DNA of 64,000 nt, from IMG/VR virus record IMGVR_UViG_2788500025_000001, positions 36,163 to 100,162 of that record. One strand, written 5' to 3'. The DNA is from a virus. Below the pieces are notes generated by a model. The model ran no database searches and had not been told where the DNA came from. It was given only the letters and a program-made list of their open reading frames with translations. Shown here piece by piece: positions 14,176 to 57,534 of this stretch (its first letter is position 1; every line of letters starts with the position of its first letter). Position numbers and translations under genes: made by a program.

Positions 14176-14190
14176 CGGTAGTCGCTCTAT
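14176..14190 (+). promoter_or_regulatory. Late motif CGGTAG-N5-CTAT
   Basis: Exact match; upstream of 14223. Confidence 0.85.
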
Positions 14191-14222
14191 TGGGGAGGAC
14201 TGGTAGTCCTGGAGTGACCGGC

Positions 14223-14540
14223 ATGAGAGATAAGACCCCATCAGTCCGTCGCGTTTTGATGGCGAAGCGCGTGGCCCGCAACTGGCTTCAGGACCACGCC
14301 GAGCCAGAGTACCGGTTGACTGTTTACCGGGGGGCCTCCCGAGAGTCGCGCAACCTGCCCGGCCTGCTCCGGTCCTTCCGGGACGGCAGGATCAAGTTTG
14401 GCAACACCGACCGTGTGCCTGACCTGGGCATCAAGGTGGCTTTCGACTCCATCACAGTCTGGTCGAAAGACAAGAGCCGCCTGCAAGGTCTGGAGGCAGC
14501 CCTTCAGAAGATGGGCTGCGAGACCACGGGAGTTTTCTGA
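14223..14540 (+). CDS. Hypothetical late protein (KRVARNW leader)
   Basis: Follows the motif; carries the RVA motif. Confidence 0.7.
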   Translation: MRDKTPSVRRVLMAKRVARNWLQDHAEPEYRLTVYRGASRESRNLPGLLRSFRDGRIKFGNTDRVPDLGIKVAFDSITVWSKDKSRLQGLEAALQKMGCETTGVF

Positions 14541-14968
14541 TGGCCGCCTCCCTCGCCCAGTCCGAGTTCGTCTACAGGTCGGGCACGAGCCCCGACATCT
14601 ACACGTTCACCATCACTTCCGATTCCCAGGGGAACCTGTCGGTGCGGGACATCGAAGACCCTTATGGGTTCGTGATCTCGCCGTACACCCAGATCCCCCA
14701 GAGCGTGACCGCCGACATCTCGTCCGCCATGTCAGCAGTGGAGACTATTTTGGCACTCACATCAGCCGTCAACGGCACCCTGACCTTCACCGCTGAAACA
14801 TCGAAGTCCGTGACCTTCGCCGAGGCGTTTGCCGACACCTCGTACCGGGTCCAGACGACCTCCGACATCTTTGCCCCCTTCCGTATCACAAACAAGACCG
14901 TCCTGGGGTTCACCATCCAGGCTGGTGCTACCGTCACAGCGAACGTCGGGTACGACGTCTTCGTGTGA
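14540..14968 (+). CDS. Putative structural protein; C-terminus paralogous to ORF 41032
   Basis: Beta-rich; NKTVLGFTIQ..VGYDV versus NKTATEFRIE..VGYSI. Confidence 0.65.
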   Translation: MAASLAQSEFVYRSGTSPDIYTFTITSDSQGNLSVRDIEDPYGFVISPYTQIPQSVTADISSAMSAVETILALTSAVNGTLTFTAETSKSVTFAEAFADTSYRVQTTSDIFAPFRITNKTVLGFTIQAGATVTANVGYDVFV

Positions 14969-14972
14969 TCCA

Positions 14973-14987
14973 CGGTAGCGAGCCTAT
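14973..14987 (+). promoter_or_regulatory. Late motif CGGTAG-N5-CTAT
   Basis: Exact match; upstream of 15016. Confidence 0.85.
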
Positions 14988-15015
14988 GCCCCCGTGGGGG
15001 TGACTGGAGATTTCA

Positions 15016-21034: not shown

Positions 21035-21315
21035 ACATTACCGATCCGGTCACCGTCGAGGAATGGGGCCAGTACATCAGCAACCTGAGTGGGGCGAAGT
21101 TGTTTTCGCAAGCCATCGCAGCGAACACCCTCAACTTCGTGGGGATGCTTCAGAGCGAGGGTTTCAGCAGTGACGAGGTCACCGATGTCTTGCTGATGTT
21201 CGCCATGCGTTTCCGTGACACCAAACTCGACATGCCCAACGGTATCCCTGGCGAGTACATCTCCTACCCGGATCTTCTGGATTCGGTAGGCCGCCTATCG
21301 GACGCACAGGTATAG
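21031..21315 (+). CDS. Hypothetical protein
   Basis: ATGA overlap; GGAG RBS. Confidence 0.65.
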   Translation: MNITDPVTVEEWGQYISNLSGAKLFSQAIAANTLNFVGMLQSEGFSSDEVTDVLLMFAMRFRDTKLDMPNGIPGEYISYPDLLDSVGRLSDAQV

Positions 21316-21324
21316 GAGCCTCCC

Positions 21325-22017
21325 ATGTCTTTCAAAGCCCACCTACGTTCCATCCTTGCTTCCGAAGGGCTGCTTCCCTCAGATCGTGTTGCGGGCAGGT
21401 CCATGCCACGCCTCGACTGGATGATCCCGACCGCTGAGAAGGGAGGGGCGCGTGAGGAGAAGATGTCTGACGGGATGCTTCGCGTCTGGCGGTGGGACAC
21501 AGACCACGTCCACAAGCGCACCGGCAACCCCTACACTCGCTACCACCTGCTGGTGGGGTCAGCCTCCAAGCGGGCGAAGAACGCCCTGGCCTGGGAATAC
21601 CACACCTCAAAGGCCGCTCGGGACAAGGCAATCGACTCCTGGGTTTCCTACTACGACCGGAAGGCTCAAGAGAAGGCTGACCGGCAGGAGGCCGCCAAAA
21701 ACTTCCAGCATGGCCTCCAGGTCGGAGACATCCTCTCCGCGTCCTGGGGCTACAACCAGACCAACGTGAACTTCTACGAGGTCACGCGAGTCGTTGGGAA
21801 GGCAACCGTGGAGGTCCGAGAGGTTCAGTCGAAGGTCGTCCGCGAGTCCGGCCATGCCCTCTACGTCGTGCCTCGCAAAGGCAAGTGGACGGCTCGCAGC
21901 ACCACCATGAAGAAGCGCGTCAGCCCCAGCGGGCACGTCAAGATCAACAGTTCCATTTCCGCCTCCGAGTGGAGCGGCAAACCCATGTACGAAACGTCAC
22001 CCTACGCAGGCCATTAG
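21325..22017 (+). CDS. Leader-A protein with GDILSASWGYNQTNVNFYEV domain
   Basis: HLRSILASEGLL leader; RBS AGGAG. Confidence 0.75.
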   Translation: MSFKAHLRSILASEGLLPSDRVAGRSMPRLDWMIPTAEKGGAREEKMSDGMLRVWRWDTDHVHKRTGNPYTRYHLLVGSASKRAKNALAWEYHTSKAARDKAIDSWVSYYDRKAQEKADRQEAAKNFQHGLQVGDILSASWGYNQTNVNFYEVTRVVGKATVEVREVQSKVVRESGHALYVVPRKGKWTARSTTMKKRVSPSGHVKINSSISASEWSGKPMYETSPYAGH

Positions 22018-22379: not shown

Positions 22380-22394
22380 CGGTATCTCGCCTAT
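22380..22394 (+). promoter_or_regulatory. Late motif variant CGGTAT-N5-CTAT
   Basis: One mismatch; upstream of 22448. Confidence 0.65.
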
Positions 22395-22447: not shown

Positions 22448-23677
22448 TTGTTCGCTACCCTTACCGAAGCCCTCAAGCGGCGCATGATCGAGGAGATCCG
22501 GTACTACTGGGGCCAAGACCCCCAGTATCGGGACTCGCTTGTGCCCAACATTCAGGGTCGGTTTTCTTTCCAGGAGCGACCACAGCAGGCCATCATCCTC
22601 AAGAGTCAGTCGGCCAGCCCCTACCAGATGGCGGCGGACCACTACCAGGGAGCGATTGTCTCCTACTGCTACCTCACGAAGGTGTACGGGCAGCGAGGCA
22701 CGAGCATCGAGTGGGTGCGGGAGAACGCCGTCGCGATCCAGGCGAACAACGGGGTGTTCCCAACCCCTGCCGGGGTCTACTACATCGAGGTCCGCTCCGA
22801 AGTCATCGACGTTCGCGGTGTCCCGAAGGAAAAACTGGTCTTCTATGTGGACCCCCTCCTGGAGGTCATCGACCAGCGAGCCACGATGCTTGATCCCAGG
22901 CTCTACGAAGTAGGCGCGGGGTCGTTCCATCCAGGATCACTCCGGGTCTATGAGATGCCTGGCAGTGTCCCGTACTATGAGAACGTCAACTACACGGCTG
23001 ACTCCACCACAGGCAGGATCACACTCGCCAGCCCCCTCGCTCCCAACACCTACCTGTCGGTGGACTATCGCTACGCGGGCACCAGCAGCGGGCCGTTCCC
23101 CCTGCCCATGAACGGGGCCAACGTCGAAGCCATTCCAGGCGTCGTCCTGGCCTTCGGTCGTCAAGCCTACGATGGGGACATCATGGCAGTCGTGGTGGGC
23201 ACGACTCGGGAGACAGTGGCGAAGGAGTTCGGCGGGCGGTGGGAGATGAACATCGACTTCGACATCATGGCGCGGGACGTCTACGCCCAGGGTGAGATCA
23301 CCGACCGCACGTTGATGTACCTCTACACCGATGCGAGGGACCGGCTCTCTACGGAGGGCATTGAGATCACGATGGTCACCATGGGCGGCGAGGCTGAGGA
23401 GATCTACGACGATGTGGGCGATGACTACTTCTACACCGCCAACATCTCGATGACGATCATGACCGACTGGGCGATCCATGTGCCCATCGGACGCACGCTG
23501 ATCCGAGCCGAGGCGAACACGGTGTCTGAGACTGAGATGGTCGCCGGGCTCACGGACGACCAGTTGATCGAGATGGGGTCACCGACCGGCCTGCACTACG
23601 CGGAGACCCTGAACCTCATTGAGATCCGTGATCCCTACTTCCGGGGGCGCACGAAGACCTACGACCTGATCCGGTAG
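22448..23677 (+). CDS. Putative neck/tail-completion structural protein
   Basis: TTG start with GGAGG RBS; beta-rich with terminator-like C-terminal half; function inferred from context. Confidence 0.5.
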   Translation: MFATLTEALKRRMIEEIRYYWGQDPQYRDSLVPNIQGRFSFQERPQQAIILKSQSASPYQMAADHYQGAIVSYCYLTKVYGQRGTSIEWVRENAVAIQANNGVFPTPAGVYYIEVRSEVIDVRGVPKEKLVFYVDPLLEVIDQRATMLDPRLYEVGAGSFHPGSLRVYEMPGSVPYYENVNYTADSTTGRITLASPLAPNTYLSVDYRYAGTSSGPFPLPMNGANVEAIPGVVLAFGRQAYDGDIMAVVVGTTRETVAKEFGGRWEMNIDFDIMARDVYAQGEITDRTLMYLYTDARDRLSTEGIEITMVTMGGEAEEIYDDVGDDYFYTANISMTIMTDWAIHVPIGRTLIRAEANTVSETEMVAGLTDDQLIEMGSPTGLHYAETLNLIEIRDPYFRGRTKTYDLIR

Positions 23678-23686
23678 TGATCCTAT
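23672..23686 (+). promoter_or_regulatory. Late motif CGGTAG-N5-CTAT
   Basis: Exact match; its TAG is the stop of ORF 22448. Confidence 0.85.
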
Positions 23687-23722: not shown

Positions 23723-24187
23723 ATGCCCCGCAACCTTACTGCCGCCGACCGGTCCACCCTCATTCGTCTTGCCTCGACGCTTCCTGTGGGGAGCGAGGAG
23801 CGGAAGGCCATCCTCGCCGGGCTCGCTGCCGAAGGTCTGCTTTCCGACAAGCAAGCCTCTCGCCCCCCTCTGGACAAGGAGCAGATCGCCGAGATCGAGA
23901 AGGAGGGCTGGCCCGACATGATGTCGCAGGCTGAGGCGTCCGACTGGGCCGTGAACACGATCCGGCAGGCATGGCGGGAGCGAGGCATGGTCGGAAAGCC
24001 CGAACAGATGATGCGCGAGGAGTTCGACCGCATCCGTAAGGGGAACCTCGACTATCTCAAGTACCTCCGGGTGAGCCGTGCTGGGTCGAAGTTCCGTATC
24101 GACCGGGCGATGCGTCGTGCGATCTACATCCAGTACCTCGCCAAAAACAAGAAGGTGAAGTCCGAGTTGTGGCGCAGGCTCCGGTAG
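23723..24187 (+). CDS. Hybrid leader-B/A small protein
   Basis: LTAADRSTLIRLASTLPVGSEERKAILAGLAAEGLLSDKQA. Confidence 0.75.
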   Translation: MPRNLTAADRSTLIRLASTLPVGSEERKAILAGLAAEGLLSDKQASRPPLDKEQIAEIEKEGWPDMMSQAEASDWAVNTIRQAWRERGMVGKPEQMMREEFDRIRKGNLDYLKYLRVSRAGSKFRIDRAMRRAIYIQYLAKNKKVKSELWRRLR

Positions 24188-24196
24188 CGTGCCTAT
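24182..24196 (+). promoter_or_regulatory. Late motif CGGTAG-N5-CTAT
   Basis: Exact match; its TAG is the stop of ORF 23723. Confidence 0.85.
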
Positions 24197-24600: not shown

Positions 24601-24615
24601 CGGTAGCGTGCCTAT
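24601..24615 (+). promoter_or_regulatory. Late motif CGGTAG-N5-CTAT
   Basis: Exact match; upstream of the endolysin. Confidence 0.85.
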
Positions 24616-26369: not shown

Positions 26370-26485
26370 AGCCCGGTTCGATACCCCGTCTATACTCGGC
26401 ACCAGGTGTAACACTGGCCTTCGTCGGTCGGGATCCCGCGCTTGCACCCTCTCAGCGCCGCTGAGTCAAGATCACGAGGTTCATC

Positions 26486-31716: not shown

Positions 31717-31731
31717 CGGTAGGTAACCTAT
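31717..31731 (+). promoter_or_regulatory. Late motif CGGTAG-N5-CTAT
   Basis: Exact match, directly after the terminator. Confidence 0.85.
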
Positions 31732-32522: not shown

Positions 32523-32537
32523 CGGTAGCCTCTCTAT
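32523..32537 (+). promoter_or_regulatory. Late motif CGGTAG-N5-CTAT
   Basis: Exact match. Confidence 0.85.
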
Positions 32538-35722: not shown

Positions 35723-37678
35723 ATGGGTCTTGCCGACATCGCCGCCGCAGTCGGGCGGCGGTCGTCCACCAGTGCGGTCGATGTGGTGGATGTCATCACC
35801 TTCATCGAGTCGGCGTGGGGGCTACACCTACGCCTGTACCCTGTTCAACGGATCATCCTCAAGGCCCACTACGGCATGGCGCTGGATGACAACCCGCTGG
35901 ACATCCCCCTGGACATCCCGATTGACCAGACACACCCCCAGTGGAACGACTCGTGGGCCGAGCACCTGGACGACGAGGGCTTCTACAAGTGGCGCATCGT
36001 GGTCACCGACTTCCGCCGCGAGAACGTCCAGTACACGACAGAGGCGGGCTACCTCCGCTTCCTCCACGACGAGGGCCGGTGCAACATCCGGGAAGTCGTC
36101 CCTGGCAAGCAGCGTCGGGAAATGGTCCTGTCTGTGGGGCGTCGTTCGGGCAAGACCCTCATAACGTCCTGCATCGTGGCTTATGAGAACTACAAACTGC
36201 TGCTGCTGGGCAATCCCCAGAAGCACTACGGGTCTTCTCAGTCCAACGTGATCCAGTTGATCTCGGTGGCAACCGACCGAGATCAGGCCGGGCTCCTGTA
36301 CCGGGAAGCCTCAGGCCACTTTACGAAGTGCGACTTCTTCAAACCCTACGCCGCCAACGCCACCCAATCCTTCGCGACGTTCCAGACCCCGTTCGACATC
36401 GAGCGGTACGGCTCCTACGCCGACAACCAGAAGGCCCGGTTCAGCATCAACGTGACCTTCCGGTCCTGTGTGGCGAAGGGGCTTCGCGGTGGTGCCAACA
36501 TCCTTGTGGCTCTGGACGAGGTTGCCCACTTCGGCGACAAGGGTCAGGCGTCTGCTGACGAGGTGTACCAGGCAGTCGAGCCGAGTACCCGTACCTTCAG
36601 CCCCAAAGACCCAAGAAACCCAACCCGCCCCATTGGGGAGAACGAGGGTCGGATCATCCTGATCTCATCGCCCCTGGGCAAGCAGGGGTTGTTTTTCAAG
36701 CAGTACCGACTGGGCTTCGGGAGCAACAAAGCAGCCGACAATCTGCTGTGCATCCAGGCTCCGACCTGGGAGGTCAACCCGACTGTTCCCGCCGAGACGT
36801 TCGTGGCGTCGTACCTCAAAGACCCCAACGTCTTCTTCACTGAGTTCGGGGCCGAGTTTTCCGACCGGACCCGTGGCTGGATCACCGACAAGGCCGACCT
36901 CATGGCTTGTGTGGACCCCAACCTGCGCCCGAAGCCTCGCGCCCCCTCCCGGATGCCGCACTTCATGGGCCTCGATGTCGCGTTGGTAGGCGACTACACT
37001 TCCGTTGCCATCGGCCACAACGACGCCAACGGCAACGTGGTCCTCGACTACATCGACAGGATCAAGGCGGGTGAAGGGGACTACGAGCACCTGGACCGGC
37101 TGGAGTTCGACGACGTGGCCGACTGGGTCTATGACCTCAGCCGCAGGTTTTACATCAGCGAGGGCATGTTCGACCAATGGTCCGGCATCCCCATGGAGCA
37201 GGCGTTGAAGAAGCGGGGTCTGTCTACGCTCAAGTCGGTCCACCACACCCGGAACCTGTCGAGCCAGATGTTCCAGAACTTCAAGAACCTGATGCTCGAC
37301 AAGAAGATGACCCTGTTCGACTGGCCCATCCCGGACGGGGACGACCACTCAGCCCACATCACGGAGTTGCTGGAACTCCAGGGTGAGTTCATCAGCAAGT
37401 ACATCATCAAGGTTGAGGCTCCTAAGATCGAAGGCAAACACGACGACCTCTCCGATGCGTTGATCCGCATGGTCTGGACCGCCACGAACAACTCAGCGAA
37501 GCGGGTGATCCTGTCAGGACACCGGGCAGGCGGGGCGCGTCCTTCTGTAGGGGGCGCGGGATCACGGTTCGGACGGGTCCCCACATCGCTCAAAGGGCGC
37601 ACTGGCTCCCACCCTTCCCGGCAGATTCCGAAGAAGGGTCGCGGTGGTGGTGGCGGTCGCGGTGGTGGGCGGCGGTAG
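35723..37678 (+). CDS. terL: Terminase large subunit
   Basis: GRRSGKT Walker A, VALDEVAH Walker B, LISS motif C, MGLDVA and KHDDLSDAL nuclease motifs. Confidence 0.92.
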   Translation: MGLADIAAAVGRRSSTSAVDVVDVITFIESAWGLHLRLYPVQRIILKAHYGMALDDNPLDIPLDIPIDQTHPQWNDSWAEHLDDEGFYKWRIVVTDFRRENVQYTTEAGYLRFLHDEGRCNIREVVPGKQRREMVLSVGRRSGKTLITSCIVAYENYKLLLLGNPQKHYGSSQSNVIQLISVATDRDQAGLLYREASGHFTKCDFFKPYAANATQSFATFQTPFDIERYGSYADNQKARFSINVTFRSCVAKGLRGGANILVALDEVAHFGDKGQASADEVYQAVEPSTRTFSPKDPRNPTRPIGENEGRIILISSPLGKQGLFFKQYRLGFGSNKAADNLLCIQAPTWEVNPTVPAETFVASYLKDPNVFFTEFGAEFSDRTRGWITDKADLMACVDPNLRPKPRAPSRMPHFMGLDVALVGDYTSVAIGHNDANGNVVLDYIDRIKAGEGDYEHLDRLEFDDVADWVYDLSRRFYISEGMFDQWSGIPMEQALKKRGLSTLKSVHHTRNLSSQMFQNFKNLMLDKKMTLFDWPIPDGDDHSAHITELLELQGEFISKYIIKVEAPKIEGKHDDLSDALIRMVWTATNNSAKRVILSGHRAGGARPSVGGAGSRFGRVPTSLKGRTGSHPSRQIPKKGRGGGGGRGGGRR

Positions 37679-37687
37679 CGTGCCTAT
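37673..37687 (+). promoter_or_regulatory. Late motif CGGTAG-N5-CTAT
   Basis: Exact match; its TAG is the TerL stop. Confidence 0.85.
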
Positions 37688-40300: not shown

Positions 40301-40315
40301 CGGTAGCGTGCCTAT
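40301..40315 (+). promoter_or_regulatory. Late motif CGGTAG-N5-CTAT
   Basis: Exact match. Confidence 0.85.
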
Positions 40316-41031: not shown

Positions 41032-42594
41032 ATGGCCCAGCCTCCCTTCCTTGTAGACGAACTCCAGATCGAACCTGGCAGCGGTGACACCATCACTCTG
41101 TCGCGGGACTCGACAGACGGGGCGATGAAGTTCGTCGATGCCGTGCTCACCTCTGGCGTGCTGCTCCCTGACCTCGTTGGCCTACGGAATGTCACCGGGG
41201 TCTACGTCGTGGGTCGGGCTGGCGATGGCGCGGCCTACACGAGCATCCAGGATGCTCTCGACGCTGTGCCCGACTCGTCCAGCGCAGCGGCCCCCTCACT
41301 GATCATGATCCTGCCGGGCGTCTACACGGAGAACGTGACCATCCAGAAGGACGGCGCGTATCTCGTAGGTCTCGGTGGGGTCACACTCACCAACAACGGC
41401 GTGAGCGACACTGTCGAGATCAGCGCCGCCATCACCACGACCCCACAGGACGTCCTGCTCCGAGGGCTCAAGATCCAGAACACCTCTGGAGGACGGTCCT
41501 GCGTGAGGATCCTCGGTGCGGATTCGTTCGCTTCCGGGACGGTCACGGTGAACGCTGCCCCCCTGGCTACCGGGGACACCATCACCATCAACGGCACAGC
41601 CCTCACGGGAACCGCTGGGGTCAGGACATCCGGGAGCAACGACTTTTCGGTCAGCAGCATGACCTCGGACGGCATCGCTGCCGAGATTGTCGCGGCCATC
41701 AACGACACAGCCAACTCGTTCGCCACCCTGGTCGAAGCAGAAGCCGCGTTCAACGTGGTCACCCTCACCGCTGTCACAGCAGGGTCAGCAGGCAACGCCA
41801 TCACGCTCGTGTCTGCCACAACCCCACCTGGGGGCATGACGGCTCCCGTAAGCGGTCTGCTCGCGGGAGGTGGTTCAGCAGGATCACTCGTCGGGAATGG
41901 CGTCATCACCATTGACGACTGCGAACTTCTCGCTGCTGGAGCCGCTGGCTACCAGGTCCGGGCAGACACGTCGGGCCACATTCGGGTCCGAGGCGGCACC
42001 TGGCGCGGTGGCGACAACGCCAGCCTCTCCACAGCCTCCAACTGCGCTCTCTTCTCCGTGGCAGGGGTCGAGTGGGCCAACGACTTTGAGGTCGCTTACG
42101 ACACCACTCTCGACCGCCCAGCCGACACTACCTGCGAGTACGAGATCCTGAGCGTGGGTCGCATCAACGGAGTCCTGTCCAACCTCTCGGGTGCAGGATC
42201 ACTGGCCATCAAGAACTGCCCTGTGATGGCGACCATGAGCCAGGACGGCGACCAGGCGTTCAACGCCTACCTCTCCAACCTGGGAGCACTGACCCTCAAC
42301 GGCACGACCGCCGCTACGCTCTACGGCAGCACGCGGACTACCGCGACCCAGGCTGGCGGCAGCCCTACGCTGGCCGAGCCGCACATCCGAAGCGAGGTCG
42401 TGTTCACCGCCTCAACTTCCGAGACCATCACTTTCGACGTTCCAGGACCGGACGTCAACTACACGGTGCTGGTGGAGAACCCATCACCCACTGGCACCCT
42501 GGCGATTCGGAACAAGACAGCCACGGAGTTTCGCATTGAGGCCACCCCGGCTCTCACGGAAACCGTTGGCTACTCTATTGTCCGCAGCCTGTAG
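41032..42594 (+). CDS. Fiber/appendage-like structural protein with beta-helix-like segment
   Basis: YTSIQDALDA..ILPGVYTENVTI pectin-lyase-type start; C-terminal domain shared with ORF 14540. Confidence 0.65.
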   Translation: MAQPPFLVDELQIEPGSGDTITLSRDSTDGAMKFVDAVLTSGVLLPDLVGLRNVTGVYVVGRAGDGAAYTSIQDALDAVPDSSSAAAPSLIMILPGVYTENVTIQKDGAYLVGLGGVTLTNNGVSDTVEISAAITTTPQDVLLRGLKIQNTSGGRSCVRILGADSFASGTVTVNAAPLATGDTITINGTALTGTAGVRTSGSNDFSVSSMTSDGIAAEIVAAINDTANSFATLVEAEAAFNVVTLTAVTAGSAGNAITLVSATTPPGGMTAPVSGLLAGGGSAGSLVGNGVITIDDCELLAAGAAGYQVRADTSGHIRVRGGTWRGGDNASLSTASNCALFSVAGVEWANDFEVAYDTTLDRPADTTCEYEILSVGRINGVLSNLSGAGSLAIKNCPVMATMSQDGDQAFNAYLSNLGALTLNGTTAATLYGSTRTTATQAGGSPTLAEPHIRSEVVFTASTSETITFDVPGPDVNYTVLVENPSPTGTLAIRNKTATEFRIEATPALTETVGYSIVRSL

Positions 42595-44042: not shown

Positions 44043-44968
44043 CCTTGCTTGCTTCGTCCCCATCACCGCTACGGGTGGCTTCTCTTTTCTCCGACCAGCA
44101 CGAGTTGGCGAGTCGGGTTGCTGCCAGGCACCAGGTTCGGCGGGTGGCTCGCCAGGCCGCTTCGGATCTGGGTTTGGCTACGACAACGAAAACTGCCGCC
44201 GTTGACGGACATAGCCCCTGTCGTGGGATCACGGCTGAGGCATTGTCAGCGTTTGCCGAGGCTTTCTGGCTGCCACAACAGAGTGGGATCAGACGAGCCT
44301 CACTCAGGGGGCTGGCCAAGCGGCTCAAGCAACTCGGCCAGTTGTTCAAGAAGGCCCCCCGCCTCTGGGAGCAGTTCAAACGCCTGGTGGGTGTAGAGTC
44401 CATGACCGACCTTCCTCGACGGCTCAAGGATCTGGCCGCACAAGGGAAGAAGACCCTGGCCCGTTTTCTCGGTAAGGCGTTCAACACCTTCCCTCTCCAG
44501 ATCTTCACCATCAAGGGGGCCAACCTCAACGCTTTCCTCGGTCAACTGACCCAGCAGGTCCCAGGGCTCGACAAGGCCCTGGCTCGTGTCCGGGCGGGGG
44601 CCGACGTGCTGGGTGACTGGCTCAGGAAGCACGCACCCCGCTTGTCGAAGGTGCTGATCGTCGCCACGTTCATCTTCATCTGGATGAACGTGGTCGAGTT
44701 TGAGTGGAACCTCTCGGACCTGGCCGACGCCCTGGTGGGGAACATCGGTTTCGGTGATCTCCTGGCAAGCCTGCCGGGCAGCGCACTCGGATTCCTGATG
44801 AACGGTCTGGGTCTGGGCACCTTTACCTTGCTTCCCGCTGCTCTCGTTGCCCGTGTTGTGTGGTTGATGCACAAGGGCTACGTCGTTTGGGACGGTCGTT
44901 GGTTCGATCTGAACCGGACGGCCCTCCTGCGTGACGGCTACGAGGTGGCTCCTGCTGGGGTTCGGTAG
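44039..44968 (+). CDS. Hypothetical membrane-associated protein with RVA leader
   Basis: LRVASLF..SRVAARH..KTA, then C-terminal hydrophobic helices. Confidence 0.7.
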   Translation: MTLLASSPSPLRVASLFSDQHELASRVAARHQVRRVARQAASDLGLATTTKTAAVDGHSPCRGITAEALSAFAEAFWLPQQSGIRRASLRGLAKRLKQLGQLFKKAPRLWEQFKRLVGVESMTDLPRRLKDLAAQGKKTLARFLGKAFNTFPLQIFTIKGANLNAFLGQLTQQVPGLDKALARVRAGADVLGDWLRKHAPRLSKVLIVATFIFIWMNVVEFEWNLSDLADALVGNIGFGDLLASLPGSALGFLMNGLGLGTFTLLPAALVARVVWLMHKGYVVWDGRWFDLNRTALLRDGYEVAPAGVR

Positions 44969-44977
44969 ACCGCCTAT
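44963..44977 (+). promoter_or_regulatory. Late motif CGGTAG-N5-CTAT
   Basis: Exact match; its TAG is the stop of ORF 44039. Confidence 0.85.
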
Positions 44978-52100: not shown

Positions 52101-53325
52101 AGCCACGTTGAAGCGTGTACCCACCAGCAAACGCCCGACCGCCGAGCAGGTTGCCGCTGCTGAGACCCTTGTGGAGGAGGATGAGGACGGCCTGGAGTCC
52201 CTACAAGATCAGTTGGATGATCTGGAGGGATCTGCTCCTGACAGTTCCAGTGAGGATTCCAAGGCACACAAGGCCAAGGTCACGGCCCTCAAGGCGAAGA
52301 TCAAGAAGATCGTAGCCGCCGAAAAGACCATCCAGGCCGCTGAGGAGTGGGCCAACGCACCCTCTCCCGCAGAAATCGCAGAGTCTCTCGTGGCTCTCAG
52401 GTCAGTCGAGGTCCGCAACGACCCTCTCTTGCTGGACCTTTCTAACCCCATCACCAATCTCTCCACGGACCCCCTGAACCTGGAGGGTGGTCCTCAAAAG
52501 CAGTTCATGGGCGAGATGGGCGACCTCACGGTGTCAACCGCCTCCGAGTACCGGGCGTTGTCCAAGAAGGACCGTGACTCACACAGGCAAGGGTTGGCCG
52601 ACCACATGCAGGCGTTGGAGGACAAGGGTCAGACTGACACGAAGCAGTACCATCACACCCTCGCTCAGATGCGGGGCCTCCAGATGGCATCCGCACTGGA
52701 AGATGGTGACGATGCCACTGGAGTCTCAGCGGAGTTTCAGACCTTCCTCAAGGCCGCCCAGTCTCAAGGCGCAGAGGTGCTGGACAAGTTCATCAAACTC
52801 AATGTCACCGGAGCCGCCGAAGGGGACGTAGATGCCCAACAGCAGTTTCGGGATGTCCTTCGCGGAGTACCTCCTGCGGAACTCAGGACGATGGTCCCCC
52901 AAGACAACCCGGCAGCCGAAACCCTCGACATGATCACGGGGGCGCACCTCACAGGCAAGAGGAAGGAACTGTGGTTGGGCAGCATGGACGATGAGACCCG
53001 ACAGTTGCTCCAGGAGCACGCCGAGGACATGATCATGGATGAGATCATGTTCACGGACATGGATCTCGTCCGGGCCGGGAAGTCGGTGGGCCAGCAGAAG
53101 AAGAAAAGCGGCAAGCAGAAGAAGCAGACCGCCGAGCGGGCAACGCGGAGAGGCAGGAGGCACAAGTCCGTCCTCGATGAACTACGCAAGAAGTGGGCGA
53201 AGATGCGTAACCAAACCCTCCACTCTCTTTCTTCGGCCCTCTTCGGCACACCCCCATCCACAGCAAAGACCTCTGACCTCAACGCCCTCCAGGCGTATGA
53301 CTTTCACCCCTGGGGGACCCTTTGA
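49168..53325 (+). CDS. Polyprotein: PAP2 phosphatase + SH3/KOW-like + ART-like + topoisomerase IB + unknown C-terminal domain
   Basis: KWLYNRPRP/PSGH/SRAVAGYHWPSD; LYH..GVFLT..EVLIP; RVGNE, GKSGV, KDIR, GH, SQYL. Confidence 0.88.
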   Translation: MADPKRIAALHKQGGIYKPMSEITPGTQDLLDSPTPAWLDRDYPYVAPPGEDHTLQELDYLVSLIPLREKWASFIKAADEDMTPLFVTLCSELGAPCDVDALNEMASEASILITKLKWLYNRPRPYQVAAKHLRLSGQGGVFKKGDFSVMGTTSAHSPAYPSGHTIQAHLMASRLSETSPQHRRAFMDLAEKVSFSRAVAGYHWPSDLAFGQDIFRHIVMPLMPSAVRVAKTFTVNKGDLVWYGKYKNQRGKVKNFGMSDKGDPTVTVEQLPSPSARKPKKKSPKTMNLFKIRPRKKDEHDEAADKTAGGSRTLYHVGKRPAQPQPKRAEWRQRGQPEPDWVRPWLDAPVSKGVFLTPNPFLVAPKHGVFGHVYAYQVPNWVIKQAKGINRKDGVSEVLIPEPLWEHVKFKGKSMDREDFLNQVYRSEDAAFTGSRANKYRTKSDWEALRSTRLAASKALSKKKVPKADGSGTTTVYEYGPRQVAQRNKEKAVRIETLRKKMGDLRKKAQSDLTASDPETRLAALAVCLMDETYARVGNEKSAEEGHHGVTNWLADHVTLGDKAATIRYTGKSGVKQEKKITNSRVLAALRKALEGKGKGDKVLCDGDECSVLAKDVNAYLKPFSITAKDIRGLHANEEMKRHLRDQRKAGPDLPRSRKEKDKILKAEFKAALELASDAVGHKDSTLRSQYLVPSMEEAYVHDGTVLDRLDKKATLSDSEKEEREAERLVRQSPKLKPPRRDKERGRIKDTDPDTDPDEKQDRKDRSNNYKDAAVAKAMRKYLALTAGTARSKRRRKRQPSSREVARRKQQSDTAKGSKPKAPPKLKEAPAPGSGRKKPNVGDTWKPEGSDKWSAKSKDGTESGFASQEAAKAWLTGGPGPGASGDTATDSSPAADTAPKPPDKKPSAKGRLTRKQKREMVDALVADLAKGAAAVLSNLPEDLLKEVGDALGEPARAVVDALLGIGTEALQERATFARATLKRVPTSKRPTAEQVAAAETLVEEDEDGLESLQDQLDDLEGSAPDSSSEDSKAHKAKVTALKAKIKKIVAAEKTIQAAEEWANAPSPAEIAESLVALRSVEVRNDPLLLDLSNPITNLSTDPLNLEGGPQKQFMGEMGDLTVSTASEYRALSKKDRDSHRQGLADHMQALEDKGQTDTKQYHHTLAQMRGLQMASALEDGDDATGVSAEFQTFLKAAQSQGAEVLDKFIKLNVTGAAEGDVDAQQQFRDVLRGVPPAELRTMVPQDNPAAETLDMITGAHLTGKRKELWLGSMDDETRQLLQEHAEDMIMDEIMFTDMDLVRAGKSVGQQKKKSGKQKKQTAERATRRGRRHKSVLDELRKKWAKMRNQTLHSLSSALFGTPPSTAKTSDLNALQAYDFHPWGTL

Positions 53326-53348: not shown

Positions 53349-53363
53349 CGGTAGGGTTTCTAT
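53349..53363 (+). promoter_or_regulatory. Late motif CGGTAG-N5-CTAT
   Basis: Exact match; heads the capsid assembly cluster. Confidence 0.85.
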
Positions 53364-54451: not shown

Positions 54452-55890
54452 TGGCTTTCCTCAAACGTGCCAATGCTATGGTCGTCCATCCCCGCATCTC
54501 TGGACGCGGTTGGGGTGGGATCCGCAAAACGGCTTCGGCAGGGTCCTCCCGGAACCTGACTGACCAGGCGCGGGAAATCCTCGGAGGATCGCTGTCGTCC
54601 GACGACTACCTGGTCACGCACTGCACCATCGTGGCGTCTGTAGACACCGACAAGGCCCCCAACGTGAAGTTGGGCAACGTCAAGGTCGGCACCCAGACGG
54701 TCAACAGACAGTGGGACGACTACCTGATCAAGCCCTCGTCCTCCCAGTTTGTGAACAACAACGGCGACTCGTGGAGCCGCCCGGTGCTGAGGATGGCGTA
54801 CCCGACCTTTATTGGGGCGCACAACTTCCGTGAGCACGTCCAGATCGAGGACCAGTCGAAGGGCCGGATCATCGACGCCTGTGCTCGTGACATTGGTGAC
54901 TCCCTCTATGTGGACATCCTGGTTGCCACGAACAAGAAGCACGCGGCGCTCGTCCAGGACATCCAGTCAGGCAAGATGGCGACCCTCTCCATGGGTTGCA
55001 CAACTGACTTCACGACTTGCTCTAAGTGCGGTCACTTCGCTGTGGACGAGACCCAGTTGTGTGATCACATCAAGTACGCGAAACTCAACACCTTCATGGA
55101 CGATTCCGGCCAGAAGCGTGTGATCGCAGAACTCTGTGGACACCAGTCCTACGACGAGAACCCGGACGCCCCTGGTGGGGTCAGGTTCATCGAGGCTTCC
55201 TGGGTCGCGGTTCCTGCGTTCCCCGGTGCCGTGATGCGGAACATCCTTGATCCCAGCGCGGCGTCCGACGACCAGGTTCGCAAAGTGCTCGCCTCCCCTC
55301 CCCCTCAGTGGTCAGACCACGCGGTCGCAAAGGCCGCGTCCATGTCGGCCCTTGCCTTCGACTTCGGTGGTGGCGGGGATGATGAGGACGACGCCCCTGC
55401 AAAGGACGAGAAGCCATCGCCCCCGTTTCAGGGGATCGAAGATGCGGTGTACGAAGCCCTCAAGGTCCGAGTCAGGGAGCGCCTGGAGCGCGATCTCGCC
55501 CAGAAGGCTGTTGAGGATTCTGAGCCGGAACCTGATGGCACAATGGAGCCGAACGACTCCATCATCAAGGAAGGTCGAGCACACTCGACTTCAGTCAAAG
55601 CACTTGTTCGTGTAGCCTCCTCCGAGGTCGCTCTTGTAGACGGTATTGCTTCCGTTGACGCCGCGCATGGTGTCAAGGTTGCACGCCACCTCTACAGAGT
55701 CGCCCTGGCGGCGGGGGTTCCCACCGAACACCCTTCTCTTGACCGTTACCTGTTTGCCTGTAAGAAGGCGGCGGGACGGGATCTGAGTACTGCCGAAATC
55801 CGGGTTGTTGTCCGGGTCGGCACCCTGTTGGCCCAATGGGCTGACAATAACAACCCCAAACCCCACTATCCTATGAGGAGACTGCCATGA
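54451..55890 (+). CDS. Prohead (capsid maturation) protease, putative
   Basis: Lies before scaffold and MCP; HNFREH, LSMGC..CSKCG, FIEASWVAVPA. Confidence 0.7.
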   Translation: MAFLKRANAMVVHPRISGRGWGGIRKTASAGSSRNLTDQAREILGGSLSSDDYLVTHCTIVASVDTDKAPNVKLGNVKVGTQTVNRQWDDYLIKPSSSQFVNNNGDSWSRPVLRMAYPTFIGAHNFREHVQIEDQSKGRIIDACARDIGDSLYVDILVATNKKHAALVQDIQSGKMATLSMGCTTDFTTCSKCGHFAVDETQLCDHIKYAKLNTFMDDSGQKRVIAELCGHQSYDENPDAPGGVRFIEASWVAVPAFPGAVMRNILDPSAASDDQVRKVLASPPPQWSDHAVAKAASMSALAFDFGGGGDDEDDAPAKDEKPSPPFQGIEDAVYEALKVRVRERLERDLAQKAVEDSEPEPDGTMEPNDSIIKEGRAHSTSVKALVRVASSEVALVDGIASVDAAHGVKVARHLYRVALAAGVPTEHPSLDRYLFACKKAAGRDLSTAEIRVVVRVGTLLAQWADNNNPKPHYPMRRLP

Positions 55891-57407
55891 GCCGTCAACG
55901 AATGACTTGGACAGACGCTGGGGTGTCTCGGCACGCCTCCGAGCACCCTGCAACCCCCGACGAGGGACCCGCTTCCCCCGCCCACAAGGCCCAGCCCGGC
56001 CCCGACGCCTACAAGAGTGGAGACACTTCTTCCTGGGCTGAGGACGTGCATCCTGGCCCCTACGCGAACGGTGAGCATCCTGCCACCCCCGACGAGGGAC
56101 CTGCCAGCCCTGCCTACAAGGCTGCCGCCCTGGAACGCAAGGCTGCAAAGTGCATCCGTCTCGCTACCGCCATGCTCGGTGAGGGTGCTACCGTCGCCGC
56201 CATCGAGAACCAGGCCCTGGAACTGATGGACCTTCCTGACCGTTCGATCAAGGCCAGCCTCTCCCGGCTCGCTGAGGACGCCGACGAAGCCATCGACGAT
56301 GACGACGCCGCCGAAGCCGAGGCCGATCTCGCTGAGGAAGGCAAGAAGAAGGCTTCTGTCTCCGACCGCATCGCTCGTCTGGAGCGCGTGCTCATCAAGT
56401 TGGCTGAATCCGAAGACCCTGAAGGTGACGGCGACGACTCCGAGTCCGAAGACCCCGAGGGTGACGACGACGACGACGGCAGCGAAGACCCCGGCGAAGA
56501 CGAGGACATGAAGAAGTCCGCGTCCGACGACGAGGACGACGAGGACGACGACGAGTCCATGCAGAAGAAGTCGGCCCTTGAGCGCCGCATGGACCGCATC
56601 GAGCGCGTCCTGCATCGCCTGGCTGCTGGCAAGAAGGACGACGGTGAGTCGAAGGGCGACCAGTCCAAGACCCACATCGACTATGCCGACGCGAAGGACG
56701 GCGACAAGGAGACTGGCCACGGCGAGTCTGCTGGCGATCAGTCCAAGTCCCACGAGGACTACGAAGGCAAGAAGGCTTCCGACCACGACGACGACGAGTC
56801 CATGGATGACGAAGAGTCGAAGAAGAAGGCTGGCTGGGAGCCGGGTCACCGTGCTGAAGGTGGCTGGGACCCCGGTCACATGGAGTCCATGAGCGACGAG
56901 GAGTCCATGCTGGAAGAGATGATGCTGGAAGAGATGCTTGCCGAGGAGAGCATGGATCAGAATGATCCCGAGGCTTTCTACGGTGATGATCCTTCCGGTG
57001 ATGGTGTTCCTGAGGTCATCGAGGCCGAAGGCGTCGTTGAGTCCATGATGGACCCCATGGGTCTGGACGACGAGATCGTGGAGGAGGATGACATGATGAT
57101 CCTCGCTTCCCTTTTCGGCAAGGAAGCCGACCTCAAGGATGAGGACAAGAAGGAGAAGGAAGACCACGACAAGGGTGCCATCGCCGACGACAAGGACCAC
57201 ATCGAGAAGTTGGAGAAGGACGAAGACGAGGACGCTGAGGATCTGGAGAAGGAGGAGTCGAAGAAGAAGGCTTCCCTCCGTCCCCAGCCGAAGCGTGCCA
57301 GCAAGGGTGCAAAGACCCTCGGTGGTGTGTCGAAGGAAGCGGCTTCTGAGGTCGGTGATCTCAGCAAGTTGTGGGACTCGGCTCCTGACGTGTCTCGCTT
57401 CTTCTAA
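55887..57407 (+). CDS. Capsid scaffold/core protein
   Basis: Extremely acidic, low complexity; many KKA/KSA/KEA sites; EHPATPDEGPASPA x2, EDP(E/G) x3. Confidence 0.75.
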   Translation: MSRQRMTWTDAGVSRHASEHPATPDEGPASPAHKAQPGPDAYKSGDTSSWAEDVHPGPYANGEHPATPDEGPASPAYKAAALERKAAKCIRLATAMLGEGATVAAIENQALELMDLPDRSIKASLSRLAEDADEAIDDDDAAEAEADLAEEGKKKASVSDRIARLERVLIKLAESEDPEGDGDDSESEDPEGDDDDDGSEDPGEDEDMKKSASDDEDDEDDDESMQKKSALERRMDRIERVLHRLAAGKKDDGESKGDQSKTHIDYADAKDGDKETGHGESAGDQSKSHEDYEGKKASDHDDDESMDDEESKKKAGWEPGHRAEGGWDPGHMESMSDEESMLEEMMLEEMLAEESMDQNDPEAFYGDDPSGDGVPEVIEAEGVVESMMDPMGLDDEIVEEDDMMILASLFGKEADLKDEDKKEKEDHDKGAIADDKDHIEKLEKDEDEDAEDLEKEESKKKASLRPQPKRASKGAKTLGGVSKEAASEVGDLSKLWDSAPDVSRFF

Positions 57408-57427
57408 GAAGTACGGCCAACAGGCCA

Positions 57428-57463
57428 AAACGCCCTGCCGGGATCCCTCCCGGCAGGGCGTTT
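57428..57463. terminator. Bidirectional intrinsic terminator
   Basis: AAACGCCCTGCCGGGA / TCCCGGCAGGGCGTTT perfect 16-bp stem. Confidence 0.85.
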
Positions 57464-57519
57464 GCTCGTTCCGGTCCTGACTTTGCATCACAGGGGGTCA
57501 GACTTTTCGCCCTGGGTTT

Positions 57520-57534
57520 CAATAGCCCTCCTAT
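57520..57534 (+). promoter_or_regulatory. Late motif variant CAATAG-N5-CTAT
   Basis: Follows the terminator, upstream of the decoration/MCP operon. Confidence 0.55.

What the first reader, a model, noticed from the sequence alone, without database searches (positions are those of the whole stretch)
14176..57534. Novel late-promoter-like motif CGGTAG-N5-CTAT (12 exact copies)
Seen: exact copies at 14176, 14973, 23672, 24182, 24601, 31717, 32523, 37673, 40301, 40976, 44963 and 53349. Variants lie at 1784, 22380, 26379 (CGATAC) and 57520 (CAATAG). All are on the + strand at gene boundaries, ~25-115 nt before starts; two follow terminators. I noticed no exact copy in the replication module. The half-sites are quasi-inverted (GTAG/CTAT). 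It is unlike sigma70 -35/-10 or the T4 TATAAATA.
Basis: seen in the sequence. Interest (0 to 1): 0.8.

Follow-up and report, generated by a model that had tools for sequence, protein, structure and literature searches.

The report
Giant-phage late promoter-like signal
A short DNA signal, CGGTAG-5 bases-CTAT, sits just in front of about one gene in five of an uncultured marine giant phage and its relatives; it is most likely the phage's own switch for turning on its virion genes, probably read by a two-gene transcription cassette encoded right beside the first copy.

Summary
The 141-kb contig holds 22, each facing the gene downstream, 25-41 nt before its start codon in 19 of 22.

The 15-mer is part of a three-box element: A (CGGTAG), N5, B (CTAT), N12-13, C (GTAG-like). 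It is conserved in related giant phages (5-25 exact copies per record; reversed-pattern controls 0). Of 16 G002 orthologues, 11 keep it while the spacer varies. AT-rich relatives carry TAATAG-N5-TTAT.

A separate two-box promoter class covers the replication module, where this motif is absent. No phage RNA polymerase, gp55-type sigma or sigma-54 was found. A conserved gene pair ends 3 nt before the first window copy: a NusG-family protein and a protein with two sigma region-4 HTH domains.

Best reading (about 0.6): a phage-specific promoter class for host RNA polymerase, with boxes A and B read by the double-HTH protein. Main rival (about 0.2): box A equals the core of the RfaH ops site, so it may load the phage NusG paralogue. 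No transcript data exist.

This scan already found the motif and the gene pair on related phage DNA.

The parts
14176..14190 (+). Exact copy CGGTAGTCGCTCTAT. It starts 3 nt after the stop of the double-HTH gene. GTAG box 12 nt after CTAT; ATG at 14223.
14973..14987 (+). Exact copy, 7 nt after the upstream TGA; ATG at 15016.
21284..21298 (+).
23672..23686 (+). Exact copy. Its TAG is the stop codon of gene 22448-23677. Drives 23723-24187, a small gene with a shared N-terminal leader.
24182..24196 (+). Exact copy with spacer CGTGC. Its TAG is the stop of 23723-24187. ATG at 24225.
24601..24615 (+). Exact copy with spacer CGTGC. Drives 24655-25479, a peptidoglycan-binding, endolysin-like protein.
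31717..31731 (+). Exact copy just after a hairpin that follows the giant tail-sheath gene; ATG at 31769.
32523..32537 (+). Exact copy. Drives 32563-34242, a protein with a C39-like peptidase domain.
37673..37687 (+). Exact copy. Its TAG is the stop of the large terminase gene. With the two preceding G it spells the full 12-nt ops sequence GGCGGTAGCGTG.
40301..40315 (+). Exact copy 6 nt after the portal stop codon. This junction carries the element across much of the phage family.
40976..40990 (+). Exact copy with a GTAGAC box 13 nt after CTAT. Drives 41032-42594.
44963..44977 (+). Exact copy. Its TAG is the stop of 44039-44968. GTAGGAG box 13 nt after CTAT; ATG at 45006.
53349..53363 (+). Exact copy after the 1392-aa PAP2/topoisomerase-IB gene; longest leader in the window (69 nt).
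1784..1798 (+). One-mismatch copy CGGTGG..CTAT before gene 1826-2617.
22380..22394 (+). One-mismatch copy CGGTAT..CTAT with a GTAGAG box 13 nt downstream, before gene 22448-23677. The G002 orthologue has an exact copy.
42564..42578 (+). Two-mismatch copy CGTTGG..CTAT with GTAGGAG 12 nt downstream; ATG at 42603.
26379..26393 (+). Two-mismatch variant CGATAC..CTAT upstream of the tail-sheath gene. A weak candidate.
57493..57560 (+). Hybrid site: a G-tract/-35-like box of the second promoter class (GGGGGTCAGACT), 15 nt, then CAATAG-N5-CTAT (57520-57534), 14 nt, then GTAGGA.
60554..60568 (-). One-mismatch copy CGGTGG..CTAT on the - strand, facing the - strand gene 60192-60566.
13015..13554 (+). 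NusG-family gene (NGN + KOW, 179 aa), the first gene of the conserved transcription cassette.
   Evidence: Pfam NusG 25.3 bits (cut-off 22.2) and PHROG 'transcription antiterminator'. The predicted fold matches NusG/Spt5/RfaH, with 46 PDB hits at E<=1e-3. Found in 7 of 10 relatives by Pfam, plus G004 by tblastn.
13547..14173 (+). Gene for a 208-aa protein with two tandem sigma-70 region-4 HTH domains and no region 2. It is the candidate reader of boxes A and B and overlaps the NusG-like gene by 8 nt.
   Evidence: Pfam Sigma70_r4 48.6 bits in 2 stretches. Orthologues in all 6 genomes searched. The fold matches isolated sigma region-4 domains only. 895 metagenomic homologues.

Best explanation
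The motif is the conserved upstream part of a phage-specific promoter class, which I call class 2. It drives the virion, packaging and lysis genes of an uncultured marine giant myovirus. The contig is 141 kb and about 31% complete; relatives reach 290-450 kb.

The full element has three boxes on the coding strand: A (T)CGGTAG, N5, B CTAT, N12-13, C GTAG(G/A). The start codon usually lies 25-41 nt after box B.

The phage family encodes no RNA polymerase that I could detect, so host RNA polymerase is used. Boxes A and B lie one helical turn apart and are strictly asymmetric. I infer that they are read on duplex DNA by the phage's double sigma-region-4 HTH protein (window 13547-14173), one HTH per box. 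This would replace normal -35 recognition, much as the T4 MotA box or a MarA-type monomer site does.

Box C, or box B itself, supplies the -10-like or initiation region. The adjacent NusG-family protein (13015-13554) most likely modifies the polymerase that starts here, giving antitermination or coupling to translation.

The cassette lies at the end of an operon driven by the other promoter class (two boxes, sigma-70-like). That arrangement would give an early-to-late cascade.

Shown: the motif, its anatomy, placement and conservation, and the cassette. Inferred: initiation at the element, which protein reads it, and the timing.
For: 1. Non-random and directional. There are 13 copies against 0.03 expected. 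The contig holds 22, all co-oriented with the downstream gene. Enrichment in upstream zones has P about 6e-12, even with crude gene calls.

2. Fixed geometry. The CTAT-to-ATG distance is 25-41 nt in 19 of 22 copies. GTA begins 12-13 nt after CTAT in 22 of 64 non-redundant sites and is near background at other offsets. CTAT-N12/13-GTAG is enriched about 2-fold in three genomes and lies mostly just upstream of starts, unlike the N8-9 and N16-17 controls. Sites found by boxes B and C alone recover box A at the right spacing, with T at position 4 in 31 of 32.

3. Heads of divergent units. There are three back-to-back pairs only 9, 18 and 20 bp apart, which leaves no room for separate upstream promoters.

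4. Phylogenetic footprint. Five relatives hold 16, 25, 5, 15 and 5 exact copies, with controls at 0. Of 16 reciprocal-best orthologues in G002, 8 keep an exact copy and 3 a one-mismatch copy, with different N5 spacers. The junction after the portal gene carries the element across much of the family. AT-rich relatives have TAATAG-N5-TTAT, at 9, 7, 4 and 2 copies against 0-1 in controls.

5. A distinct second promoter class occupies the regions that lack the motif. In G000 it is G-tract + TTGAYC .. GGGTAAG, at window 10307 and 11067. In G002 it is TTCAAC-N17-TATAGG. In G005 it is GGKCTTAT-N17-TAGTCT, about 50 copies. No sigma-70 consensus sites exceed chance in the late region.

6. Candidate reader. 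The double Sigma70_r4 protein is conserved in all 6 genomes searched. It is always followed by a copy of the element plus a small gene. Both recognition helices differ between the CGGTAG/CTAT clade and the TAATAG/TTAT clade. The first HTH superposes on sigma region 4, including sigma-E region 4 bound to -35 DNA.

7. No alternative polymerase or sigma was found: no RNAP beta, no gp55-type sigma, no sigma-54 DNA-binding domain and no DxDGD signature. The canonical sigma hits in G004 and G006 are not conserved in the family.
Against: No transcript 5' end is available: no RNA run was listed, so initiation at the element is inferred from position alone. The transcription start cannot be placed. Box A, box B and box C each look -10-like in some respect, and the three placements give different leaders.

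If box C is the -10, many transcripts would lose their clearly conserved Shine-Dalgarno sequence. Box C is present in only about a third to a half of the sites.

Box A is identical to ops positions 3-8, and a NusG paralogue is encoded next door, which suits the rival. The motif is not confined to late modules: copies also lie next to the RNR gene and other genes in the left part of the contig.
Confidence: 0.6

Rival explanations
1. The motif is an ops-like loading and pause site, not a promoter. Box A, exposed on the non-template strand of a transcribing polymerase, recruits the phage NusG paralogue (13015-13554). This makes the polymerase resistant to pausing and termination across the long late gene arrays and may couple it to ribosomes, as RfaH does at ops. 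Transcription would start elsewhere.
For: Box A (CGGTAG) equals ops positions 3-8. That is the C3:G8 mini-hairpin with loop G4-A7 that RfaH reads, with T6 flipped into the protein (PMC5995543). The T stays invariant across all lineage variants. Four window copies extend the match to CGGTAGCGTG, and 37673 has the full 12-mer. YGYG spacers are enriched, 8 against 1.5 expected. A NusG-family NGN-KOW protein is encoded beside the first copy and is conserved with the motif. The strict coding-strand (non-template) orientation and the leader position fit ops.
Against: Back-to-back copies 9-20 bp apart at the heads of divergent units leave no room for upstream promoters. The ops flanks are not conserved: T, not GG, precedes box A (34 of 64), and CGTG occurs in only 4 of 64 sites. 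Box B at a fixed spacing has no counterpart in ops. Copies can be only 400-700 bp apart (23672, 24182, 24601), which is pointless for a factor that stays bound. The RfaH residues that read G5 and T6 (H20, R23, Q24, R73) are not conserved: the phage proteins have an acidic first helix and a NusG-like RTPYI in place of ATRGV (a low-confidence alignment). The C-terminal domain is predicted as a beta-barrel. No other promoter candidates were found in the 43-kb late region.
Confidence: 0.2
2. The motif acts at the RNA level: a small 5'-leader hairpin (GGUAG/CUAU with a 5-nt loop), or a switch in which CUAU pairs with either GUAG box. It would serve as a processing site, a stabiliser or a translational operator.
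For: It lies 25-41 nt before start codons on the sense strand. RNA 21-mers fold slightly better than shuffles (-4.8 against -3.1 kcal/mol), and 14 of 22 minimum-energy folds pair G6 with C12. Box B can pair with box A or box C. The B-C segment is modestly more structured than controls, with 39% against 18-25% at or below -4 kcal/mol.
Against: The stem has only 4 pairs, one of them G-U. One-mismatch and lineage variants (CGGTGG, CGGTAT, CGTTAG, CGGTTC, CGGTCG..CGAT..CTCT) break pairs with no compensating change. Ten invariant bases are more than a 4-bp stem needs. The strict asymmetry is unexplained: G at position 3 on the left, A at the mirror position on the right, in 22 of 22 copies. The copies at the heads of divergent units still need a promoter.
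Confidence: 0.07
3. The motif is an oriented DNA-binding site with a non-initiating role, for example a stoperator-like silencing site for a repressor, or a recombination hotspot that shuffles small gene cassettes.
For: Asymmetric sites in short intergenic gaps, oriented with transcription, recall the stoperators of mycobacteriophage L5 (my own knowledge). Several motif-flanked small genes are paralogues with shared N-terminal leaders, as expected if repeats mediate duplication.
Against: The fixed spacing to box C and to start codons, and the presence at the heads of divergent units, are not features of stoperators. The flanks of the copies are unrelated, so the copies are not remnants of duplication. 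I did not specifically search for a repressor, integrase or other lysogeny genes.
Confidence: 0.06

Closest known systems
T4 middle promoters (MotA box plus sigma-70 -10, 'sigma appropriation' by MotA/AsiA)
   Same: A phage-specified box replaces the -35 element. It sits 12 +/- 1 bp upstream of a -10-like element (my own knowledge of the T4 literature). Here box B ends 12-13 bp before box C. Host polymerase is redirected by small phage proteins.
   Different: The sequence is unrelated. The box here is bipartite and 15 bp long. The candidate reader is a double sigma-region-4 protein, not MotA. No AsiA or MotA search was made. Whether box C is a -10 is unproven.
T4-type late promoters (TATAAATA read by gp55 with gp33 and the sliding clamp)
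   Same: Many compact promoters without a -35 element sit directly in front of individual late genes, often overlapping the end of the previous gene. A split set of small phage factors replaces sigma.
   Different: There is no TATAAATA-like box. No gp55-family sigma was found in five genomes, two of them at least 94% complete. The element here is longer and has two or three parts.
RfaH / ops (NusG paralogue recruited by GGCGGTAGCGTG on the non-template strand)
   Same: Box A is identical to ops positions 3-8. It has the same strand and leader location. A NusG-family paralogue is encoded next to its presumed targets.
   Different: The ops flanks are not conserved. An extra box B lies at a fixed spacing. 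The sites are dense and stand at the heads of divergent units. The RfaH DNA-reading residues are not conserved. The C-terminal domain is predicted as a beta-barrel.
Lambda Q with the late promoter PR' and qut
   Same: The regulator gene lies immediately upstream of the first site where it would act. There is a promoter plus a second -10-like box downstream, where a modifying factor could be loaded. The double-HTH protein gives weak Q-family hits (Pfam E 0.023; PHROG 5e-4).
   Different: Lambda has one late promoter, whereas here there are dozens of sites. The Q-family hits are below threshold, and the partner here is a NusG-family protein.
Sigma-54 promoters (-24 GG / -12 GC)
   Same: The architecture is the same: 6 + N5 + 4, two boxes one helical turn apart, with GG at the same place in the upstream box (TGGCAC-N5-TTGC against CGGTAG-N5-CTAT). 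Sigma-54 also uses two DNA-reading modules.
   Different: The -12 GC is replaced by AT. No sigma-54 DNA-binding domain is encoded by the phages. The candidate reader is built from sigma-70 region-4 folds.
MarA/SoxS/Rob-type monomeric activators
   Same: One polypeptide with two HTH units reads an asymmetric two-part box, and the orientation of that box relative to the promoter matters.
   Different: The HTH family is different (AraC type against sigma region 4), and there is no sequence relationship.

Membership tests
Sigma-70-type two-box promoter | Two hexamers (-35 and -10) separated by 16-19 bp | tested here: not met
   Boxes A and B are 5 bp apart, and B and C 12-13 bp apart. No information content lies upstream of box A apart from T at -1. 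Consensus scans find no excess in the late region.
T4-type late promoter | A single extended -10 box, TATAAATA or a close variant | tested here: not met
   The conserved bases are CGGTAG and CTAT.
T4-type late promoter | A gp55-family late sigma encoded by the phage | tested here: not met
   phrog_234 (the family of T4 gp55) has no match in G000, G002, G004, G005 or G006. phrog_12791 also gave none, but its control was silent.
Sigma-54 promoter | Conserved GG at -24 and GC at -12, one helical turn apart | tested here: not met
   The spacing and GG are matched, but the downstream box is CTAT, with AT where GC is required.
Sigma-54 promoter | A sigma-54 factor available to read it | tested here: inconclusive
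   No Sigma54_DBD is encoded in five phage genomes. The host is unknown, so host sigma-54 cannot be tested.
RfaH/ops system | The 12-nt ops element GGCGGTAGCGTG on the non-template strand | tested here: not met
   The core CGGTAG matches 6 of 6 and is on the coding strand. Across 64 sites, GG before it is not enriched (7 against 6.2 expected; T is preferred, 34 of 64) and CGTG follows in only 4. The ops sequence is from PMC5995543.
RfaH/ops system | A NusG-family NGN-KOW paralogue encoded with its targets | tested here: met
   Window 13015-13554: Pfam NusG above the cut-off, fold matches to NusG/Spt5/RfaH, and conservation in 8 of 10 relatives.
RfaH/ops system | RfaH residues that read G5 and flipped T6 (H20, R23, Q24, R73) | tested here: not met
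   The profile alignment to E. coli RfaH covers only residues 40-151, at 61.6% probability. RTPYI stands where RfaH has ATRGV, and the first helix is acidic. The alignment is low-confidence, so this is a weak negative.
RfaH/ops system | An alpha-helical autoinhibitory C-terminal domain | tested here: inconclusive
   The model gives a beta-barrel KOW. RfaH's domain is metamorphic, however, so a prediction cannot settle this.
RfaH/ops system | The site lies inside a transcript, downstream of a separate promoter | tested here: inconclusive
   This is possible for copies between co-oriented genes. It is hard to reconcile with back-to-back copies 9-20 bp apart. No RNA data exist.
T4 middle (MotA-dependent) promoter | An activator box centred near -30, 12 +/- 1 bp upstream of a -10 element | tested here: inconclusive
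   The geometry is matched if box C is a -10, but that is unproven. MotA and AsiA homologues were not searched.
N4-type hairpin promoter | A stable DNA hairpin (5-7 bp stem, 3-nt loop) read in single-stranded form | tested here: not met
   Only a 4-pair stem with a 5-nt loop is possible. The single-stranded DNA folding energy is -1.7 against -1.2 kcal/mol for shuffles, with the pair formed in 6 of 22. Variants break pairs without compensation.
T7-like single-subunit RNAP promoter | A phage-encoded single-subunit RNA polymerase | tested here: inconclusive
   No PF00940 match in five genomes, but the control genomes were silent too.
Mycobacteriophage stoperators | Asymmetric 13-14 bp repressor sites in short intergenic gaps, oriented with transcription, in a temperate phage | tested here: inconclusive
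   The orientation and intergenic placement are matched. The fixed spacing to starts and to box C is not typical. A repressor and lysogeny genes were not searched.

The most novel reading that the evidence does not exclude
The two cassette proteins together form a split, sigma-like initiation factor for host core RNA polymerase. The NGN domain of the NusG paralogue binds the beta' clamp helices, the site that sigma region 2 normally occupies. It reads box A (the ops-type CGGTAG, with its invariant T) on the melted non-template strand, in the role of a -10 reader. The double region-4 protein holds the beta flap and duplex DNA. A NusG-family protein acting in promoter recognition would be unprecedented.
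Probability: 0.08. Interest if true: 0.95.

Novelty: new variant of a known kind. Interest (0 to 1): 0.62.

Why it matters
Giant phages of this lineage are widespread in marine and other metagenomes: 76 related loci turned up, with contigs to 452 kb and GC from 32 to 67%. I could detect no RNA polymerase, no conserved canonical sigma factor and no gp55-type late sigma in them. How they time their gene expression is therefore unknown.

This element, together with the second promoter class and the conserved pair of a NusG paralogue and a double region-4 protein, gives a concrete and testable regulatory circuit for the group. It also allows operon and timing annotation of uncultured relatives from sequence alone.

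The identity of box A with the ops core also offers a natural test of whether phage NusG paralogues use RfaH-like read-out of the non-template strand.

Tried and rejected
1. Transcript evidence. No RNA holder was listed for window 21001-31000 or 23600-25500.

3. A megablast of 24 kb against annotated phages gave no match.

4. Literature searches for CGGTAG with promoter and phage, and for huge phages with sigma factor and promoter, found nothing on this motif. The phage G paper reports only generic predictor output.

5. The Sigma70_r2 hits in G004 and G006 have no homologue in G000, G002 or G005 by tblastn. The weak G005 hit is a DUF2325 protein.

6. Unrecognised polymerases. There is no RNAP beta domain and no DxDGD-type signature in conserved large ORFs. 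The one strict hit looks like a chaperonin-type motif. Several large ORFs (1196-1813 aa) have no family at all.

7. Hairpin reading of the quasi-palindrome: rejected because the energetics are weak and the variants are uncompensated.

8. A stem-loop between boxes B and C: only a modest tendency, and not universal.

9. TAG-N5-CTA counts in AT-rich loci are near chance and uninformative. The fuller AT-shifted pattern was needed.

10. Intrinsic terminators next to copies: none were listed by the scan.

Full report
**1. The observation**

CGGTAG-N5-CTAT occurs 13 times in the window, always on the + strand. The expectation is 0.03, and no shuffle out of 100 came near.

The window is part of a 141,282-bp IMG/VR viral contig with 61-62% GC. 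CheckV rates it 31% complete. The contig holds 22 exact copies, 20 on the + strand and 2 on the - strand, and none for the reversed-pattern control.

Every copy points the same way as the gene that follows it. The distance from CTAT to the start codon is 25-41 nt in 19 of 22 copies and at most 69.

In 7 copies the TAG of CGGTAG is itself the stop codon of the preceding gene. In 6 more a TGA lies 5-8 nt upstream. The element is therefore packed into minimal gaps between genes.

A weight-matrix scan adds about 11 one-mismatch copies in the same kind of place. Even with crude gene calls, the enrichment in upstream zones has P about 6e-12.

**2. What the genome is**

The window encodes a giant tail sheath (26486-31651), the large terminase (35723-37678), the portal (38594-40297), an SNF2-type helicase and a PAP2/topoisomerase-IB fusion. 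One motif-driven gene is an endolysin-like peptidoglycan-binding protein. Most of the others are unknowns.

The portal has 76 related loci in IMG/VR, on contigs up to 452 kb with GC from 32 to 67%. The nearest annotated phages are an uncultured 485-kb phage (65% portal identity), Tunturiibacter phage Tunturi_5 (36%) and Bacillus phage G (27%). DNA runs that hold the sequence are labelled as marine metagenomes.

**3. Anatomy: three boxes, not two**

About 12-13 nt after CTAT, many sites carry GTAG(G/A). GTA starts at offset 12 or 13 in 22 of 64 non-redundant sites and is near background elsewhere. This holds whether or not the box merges with the Shine-Dalgarno sequence.

CTAT-N12/13-GTAG is enriched about two-fold in G000, G002 and G005, and most of those copies lie just upstream of gene starts. 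The N8-9 and N16-17 control spacings are not enriched.

Sites retrieved by these two boxes alone bring back C-G-n-T-A-G at exactly the N5 spacing. T at position 4 is found in 31 of 32. The three boxes therefore belong together.

Over 64 sites, T is preferred just before box A (34 of 64). The spacer shows weak preferences (nSCGC). A C-rich run followed by a G-rich run lies between boxes B and C. That segment folds only modestly better than controls.

**4. Conservation**

Five relatives hold 16, 25, 5, 15 and 5 exact copies, with controls at 0.

I took the genes driven by the motif in G000 and looked at their reciprocal-best orthologues in G002. Eight of 16 have an exact copy and 3 a one-mismatch copy. 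The N5 spacer differs almost every time. This is a phylogenetic footprint on the ten specified bases.

The junction just after the portal stop codon carries the element across much of the family, with lineage-specific left halves. These are CGGTAG, CGGTAC, CGGTCG, CGTTAT and CGGTTC/CGTTTC, the last overlapping the portal's final codons.

G005 is a complete 435.8-kb genome. It keeps few exact copies but retains a degenerate box A with CTAT-N12/13-GTAG at several orthologues.

AT-richer relatives have TAATAG-N5-TTAT, at 9, 7, 4 and 2 copies against 0-1 in controls. Those copies sit ahead of genes.

The variants break the TAG/CTA symmetry without compensating changes. The possible hairpin is only 4 pairs long and energetically marginal. 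A hairpin is therefore not the conserved feature.

**5. A second promoter class**

Each of the three genomes I held whole also has a conventional two-box element.
- G005: GGKCTTAT-N17-TAGTCT(AGG), about 50 copies, often as divergent pairs.
- G002: GGGGGGTTCAAC-N17-TATAGG.
- G000: G-tract + TTGAYC .. YGGGTAAG at contig 28958, 30322, 31666, 46469 and 47229. The last two are window 10307 and 11067.

In the window this class lies in the replication part, where the CGGTAG element is absent. The 43-kb late region has no other promoter candidates above chance.

Two hybrid sites place a box-A-like sequence where the two-box class has its -10. They are at contig 2062 and window 57493.

**6. Who reads it**

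The following searches found nothing in the family:
- No T7-like polymerase, although the control was silent.
- No RNAP beta domain.
- No DxDGD signature.
- No gp55-type late sigma.
- No sigma-54 DNA-binding domain.

The canonical sigma hits in G004 and G006 are not shared by the family.

What is shared is a gene pair. Window 13015-13554 encodes a NusG-family NGN-KOW protein. Pfam NusG scores above its cut-off, and the predicted fold matches NusG, Spt5 and RfaH, with 46 PDB hits at E<=1e-3.

Window 13547-14173 overlaps it by 8 nt and encodes a 208-aa protein with two sigma-70 region-4 HTH domains and no region 2 (Sigma70_r4, 48.6 bits in two stretches). Its fold matches only isolated region-4 domains. 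Examples are SigF region 4 at 0.9 Å and sigma-E region 4 on -35 DNA. It has 895 metagenomic homologues.

The pair is present in G000, G001, G002, G004, G005, G006, G008 and G011. In G000, G001, G002, G004 and G005, where I read the downstream DNA, it is followed by a copy of the element and a small gene. In the window the first copy begins 3 nt after the stop of the double-HTH gene.

Both recognition helices differ between the two clades. The CGGTAG/CTAT clade has SQPTVCYRLQR and TQGFVRHRYFR. The TAATAG/TTAT clade has TQPNIHYRINR and SQGKVRYRYLK. This fits a co-evolving reader, but it is a single contrast.

**7. The ops resemblance**

The RfaH recruitment element is GGCGGTAGCGTG. On the non-template strand, C3:G8 close a loop G4-A7, T6 flips into RfaH, and G5 is read base-specifically (PMC5995543).

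Box A equals positions 3-8 of that element. Four window copies extend the match to CGGTAGCGTG, and 37673 has the full 12-mer. With a NusG paralogue encoded next door, this is unlikely to be pure coincidence.

Several observations count against a pure loading-site reading:
- The ops flanks are not conserved across 64 sites.
- Box B has no counterpart in ops.
- Copies can be only 400-700 bp apart.
- Three back-to-back pairs at the heads of divergent units are only 9-20 bp apart.
- The RfaH read-out residues are not conserved. The phage proteins have an acidic first helix, and RTPYI where RfaH has ATRGV (the alignment is weak).
- The C-terminal domain is predicted as a beta-barrel.

**8. Mechanism**

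I rate a promoter reading at about 0.6. This includes a compact promoter that also loads the NusG paralogue, in the manner of lambda PR'-qut.

In this model, host polymerase is recruited by the double region-4 protein, which binds boxes A and B one helical turn apart. Initiation follows somewhere between box B and a few nucleotides past box C. The NusG paralogue then modifies the elongating complex. The cassette lies at the end of an operon driven by the two-box class, which gives an early-to-late cascade.

The start site cannot be fixed from sequence. There are three possible placements:
- If box C is the -10, boxes A and B span about -40 to -26, a geometry like the T4 MotA box. Many leaders would then lose their Shine-Dalgarno sequence.
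- If box B is the -10, box A sits near -24, a sigma-54-like geometry, and box C opens the transcript.
- If box A is an extended -10, the start falls just after CTAT.

The pure ops-like site gets about 0.2, an RNA-level role about 0.07, and other DNA-level roles about 0.06.

**9. Novelty and standing**

I found no description in the searched literature. This scan had already flagged the same motif in related giant phages, where a follow-up called it a late promoter (e1-5362273, e1-5362324). It had also flagged the NusG and double region-4 pair (e1-5357394, e1-5366625). I treated those notes as leads and reached the cassette independently through family searches.

New here are the three-box anatomy, the second promoter class, the orthologue footprint, the AT-shifted form, the negative searches for known polymerases and sigmas, and the ops identity with its residue-level test.

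The element is a new variant of a known kind: a phage-specific promoter class with a phage-encoded reader.

Noticed in passing
window 10307-10341 and 11067-11101 (+); contig 28958, 30322, 31666 (outside the window): A second, two-box promoter-like class, G-tract + TTGAYC, about 13-15 nt, then YGGGTAAG, lies ahead of replication-module genes. Relatives have their own versions: G002 has GGGGGGTTCAAC-N17-TATAGG, and G005 has GGKCTTAT-N17-TAGTCTAGG (about 50 copies, often as divergent pairs).
   Followed up: partly
window 23723-24187 and 31769-32278 (plus contig 6183-6500); window 21325-22017, 24225-24596 and 40343-40780: Motif-driven small genes fall into two groups with shared N-terminal leaders, MP/ARxLTAxDRSxLIRLAS and LRxILAsEGLL, on otherwise unrelated bodies. 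They may be virion-targeted cargo proteins.
   Followed up: no
window 23675-23677, 24185-24187, 37676-37678, 44966-44968: The TAG inside box A doubles as the stop codon of the upstream gene. This happens at 7 of 22 copies in the contig, so the regulatory element overlaps coding sequence by design.
   Followed up: yes
G004 (record of L022) 51760-51812, - strand: Three identical copies, CGGTAGAGCTACTAT, stand in tandem with a 19-nt period. G000 has a tandem pair 34 nt apart at contig 20632 and 20666.
   Followed up: no
window 26486-31651 (+): An unusually large 1721-aa protein whose C-terminal 350 residues match tail sheath (PHROG 2839), with a weak DUF2460 hit near the N-terminus.
   Followed up: no
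window 49147-53325 (+): A 1392-aa fusion of a PAP2 phosphatase domain and a eukaryotic-type topoisomerase IB catalytic core, with a long unassigned C-terminal part.
   Followed up: no
window 59206-59237 (+): A strong 14-bp GC-rich hairpin followed by a T-rich tail, the best terminator-like site in the window.
   Followed up: no
L147:1492-3285 (G006): In the 452-kb relative, the NGN-KOW unit is the N-terminus of a 597-aa open frame. It is either fused to additional domains or the stop is missing.
   Followed up: no
contig 114014-123822, 129120-132710 (outside the window): Three very large ORFs (1455, 1813 and 1196 aa) have no Pfam or PHROG family at all. A 1970-aa neighbour has beta-helix repeats.
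   Followed up: partly
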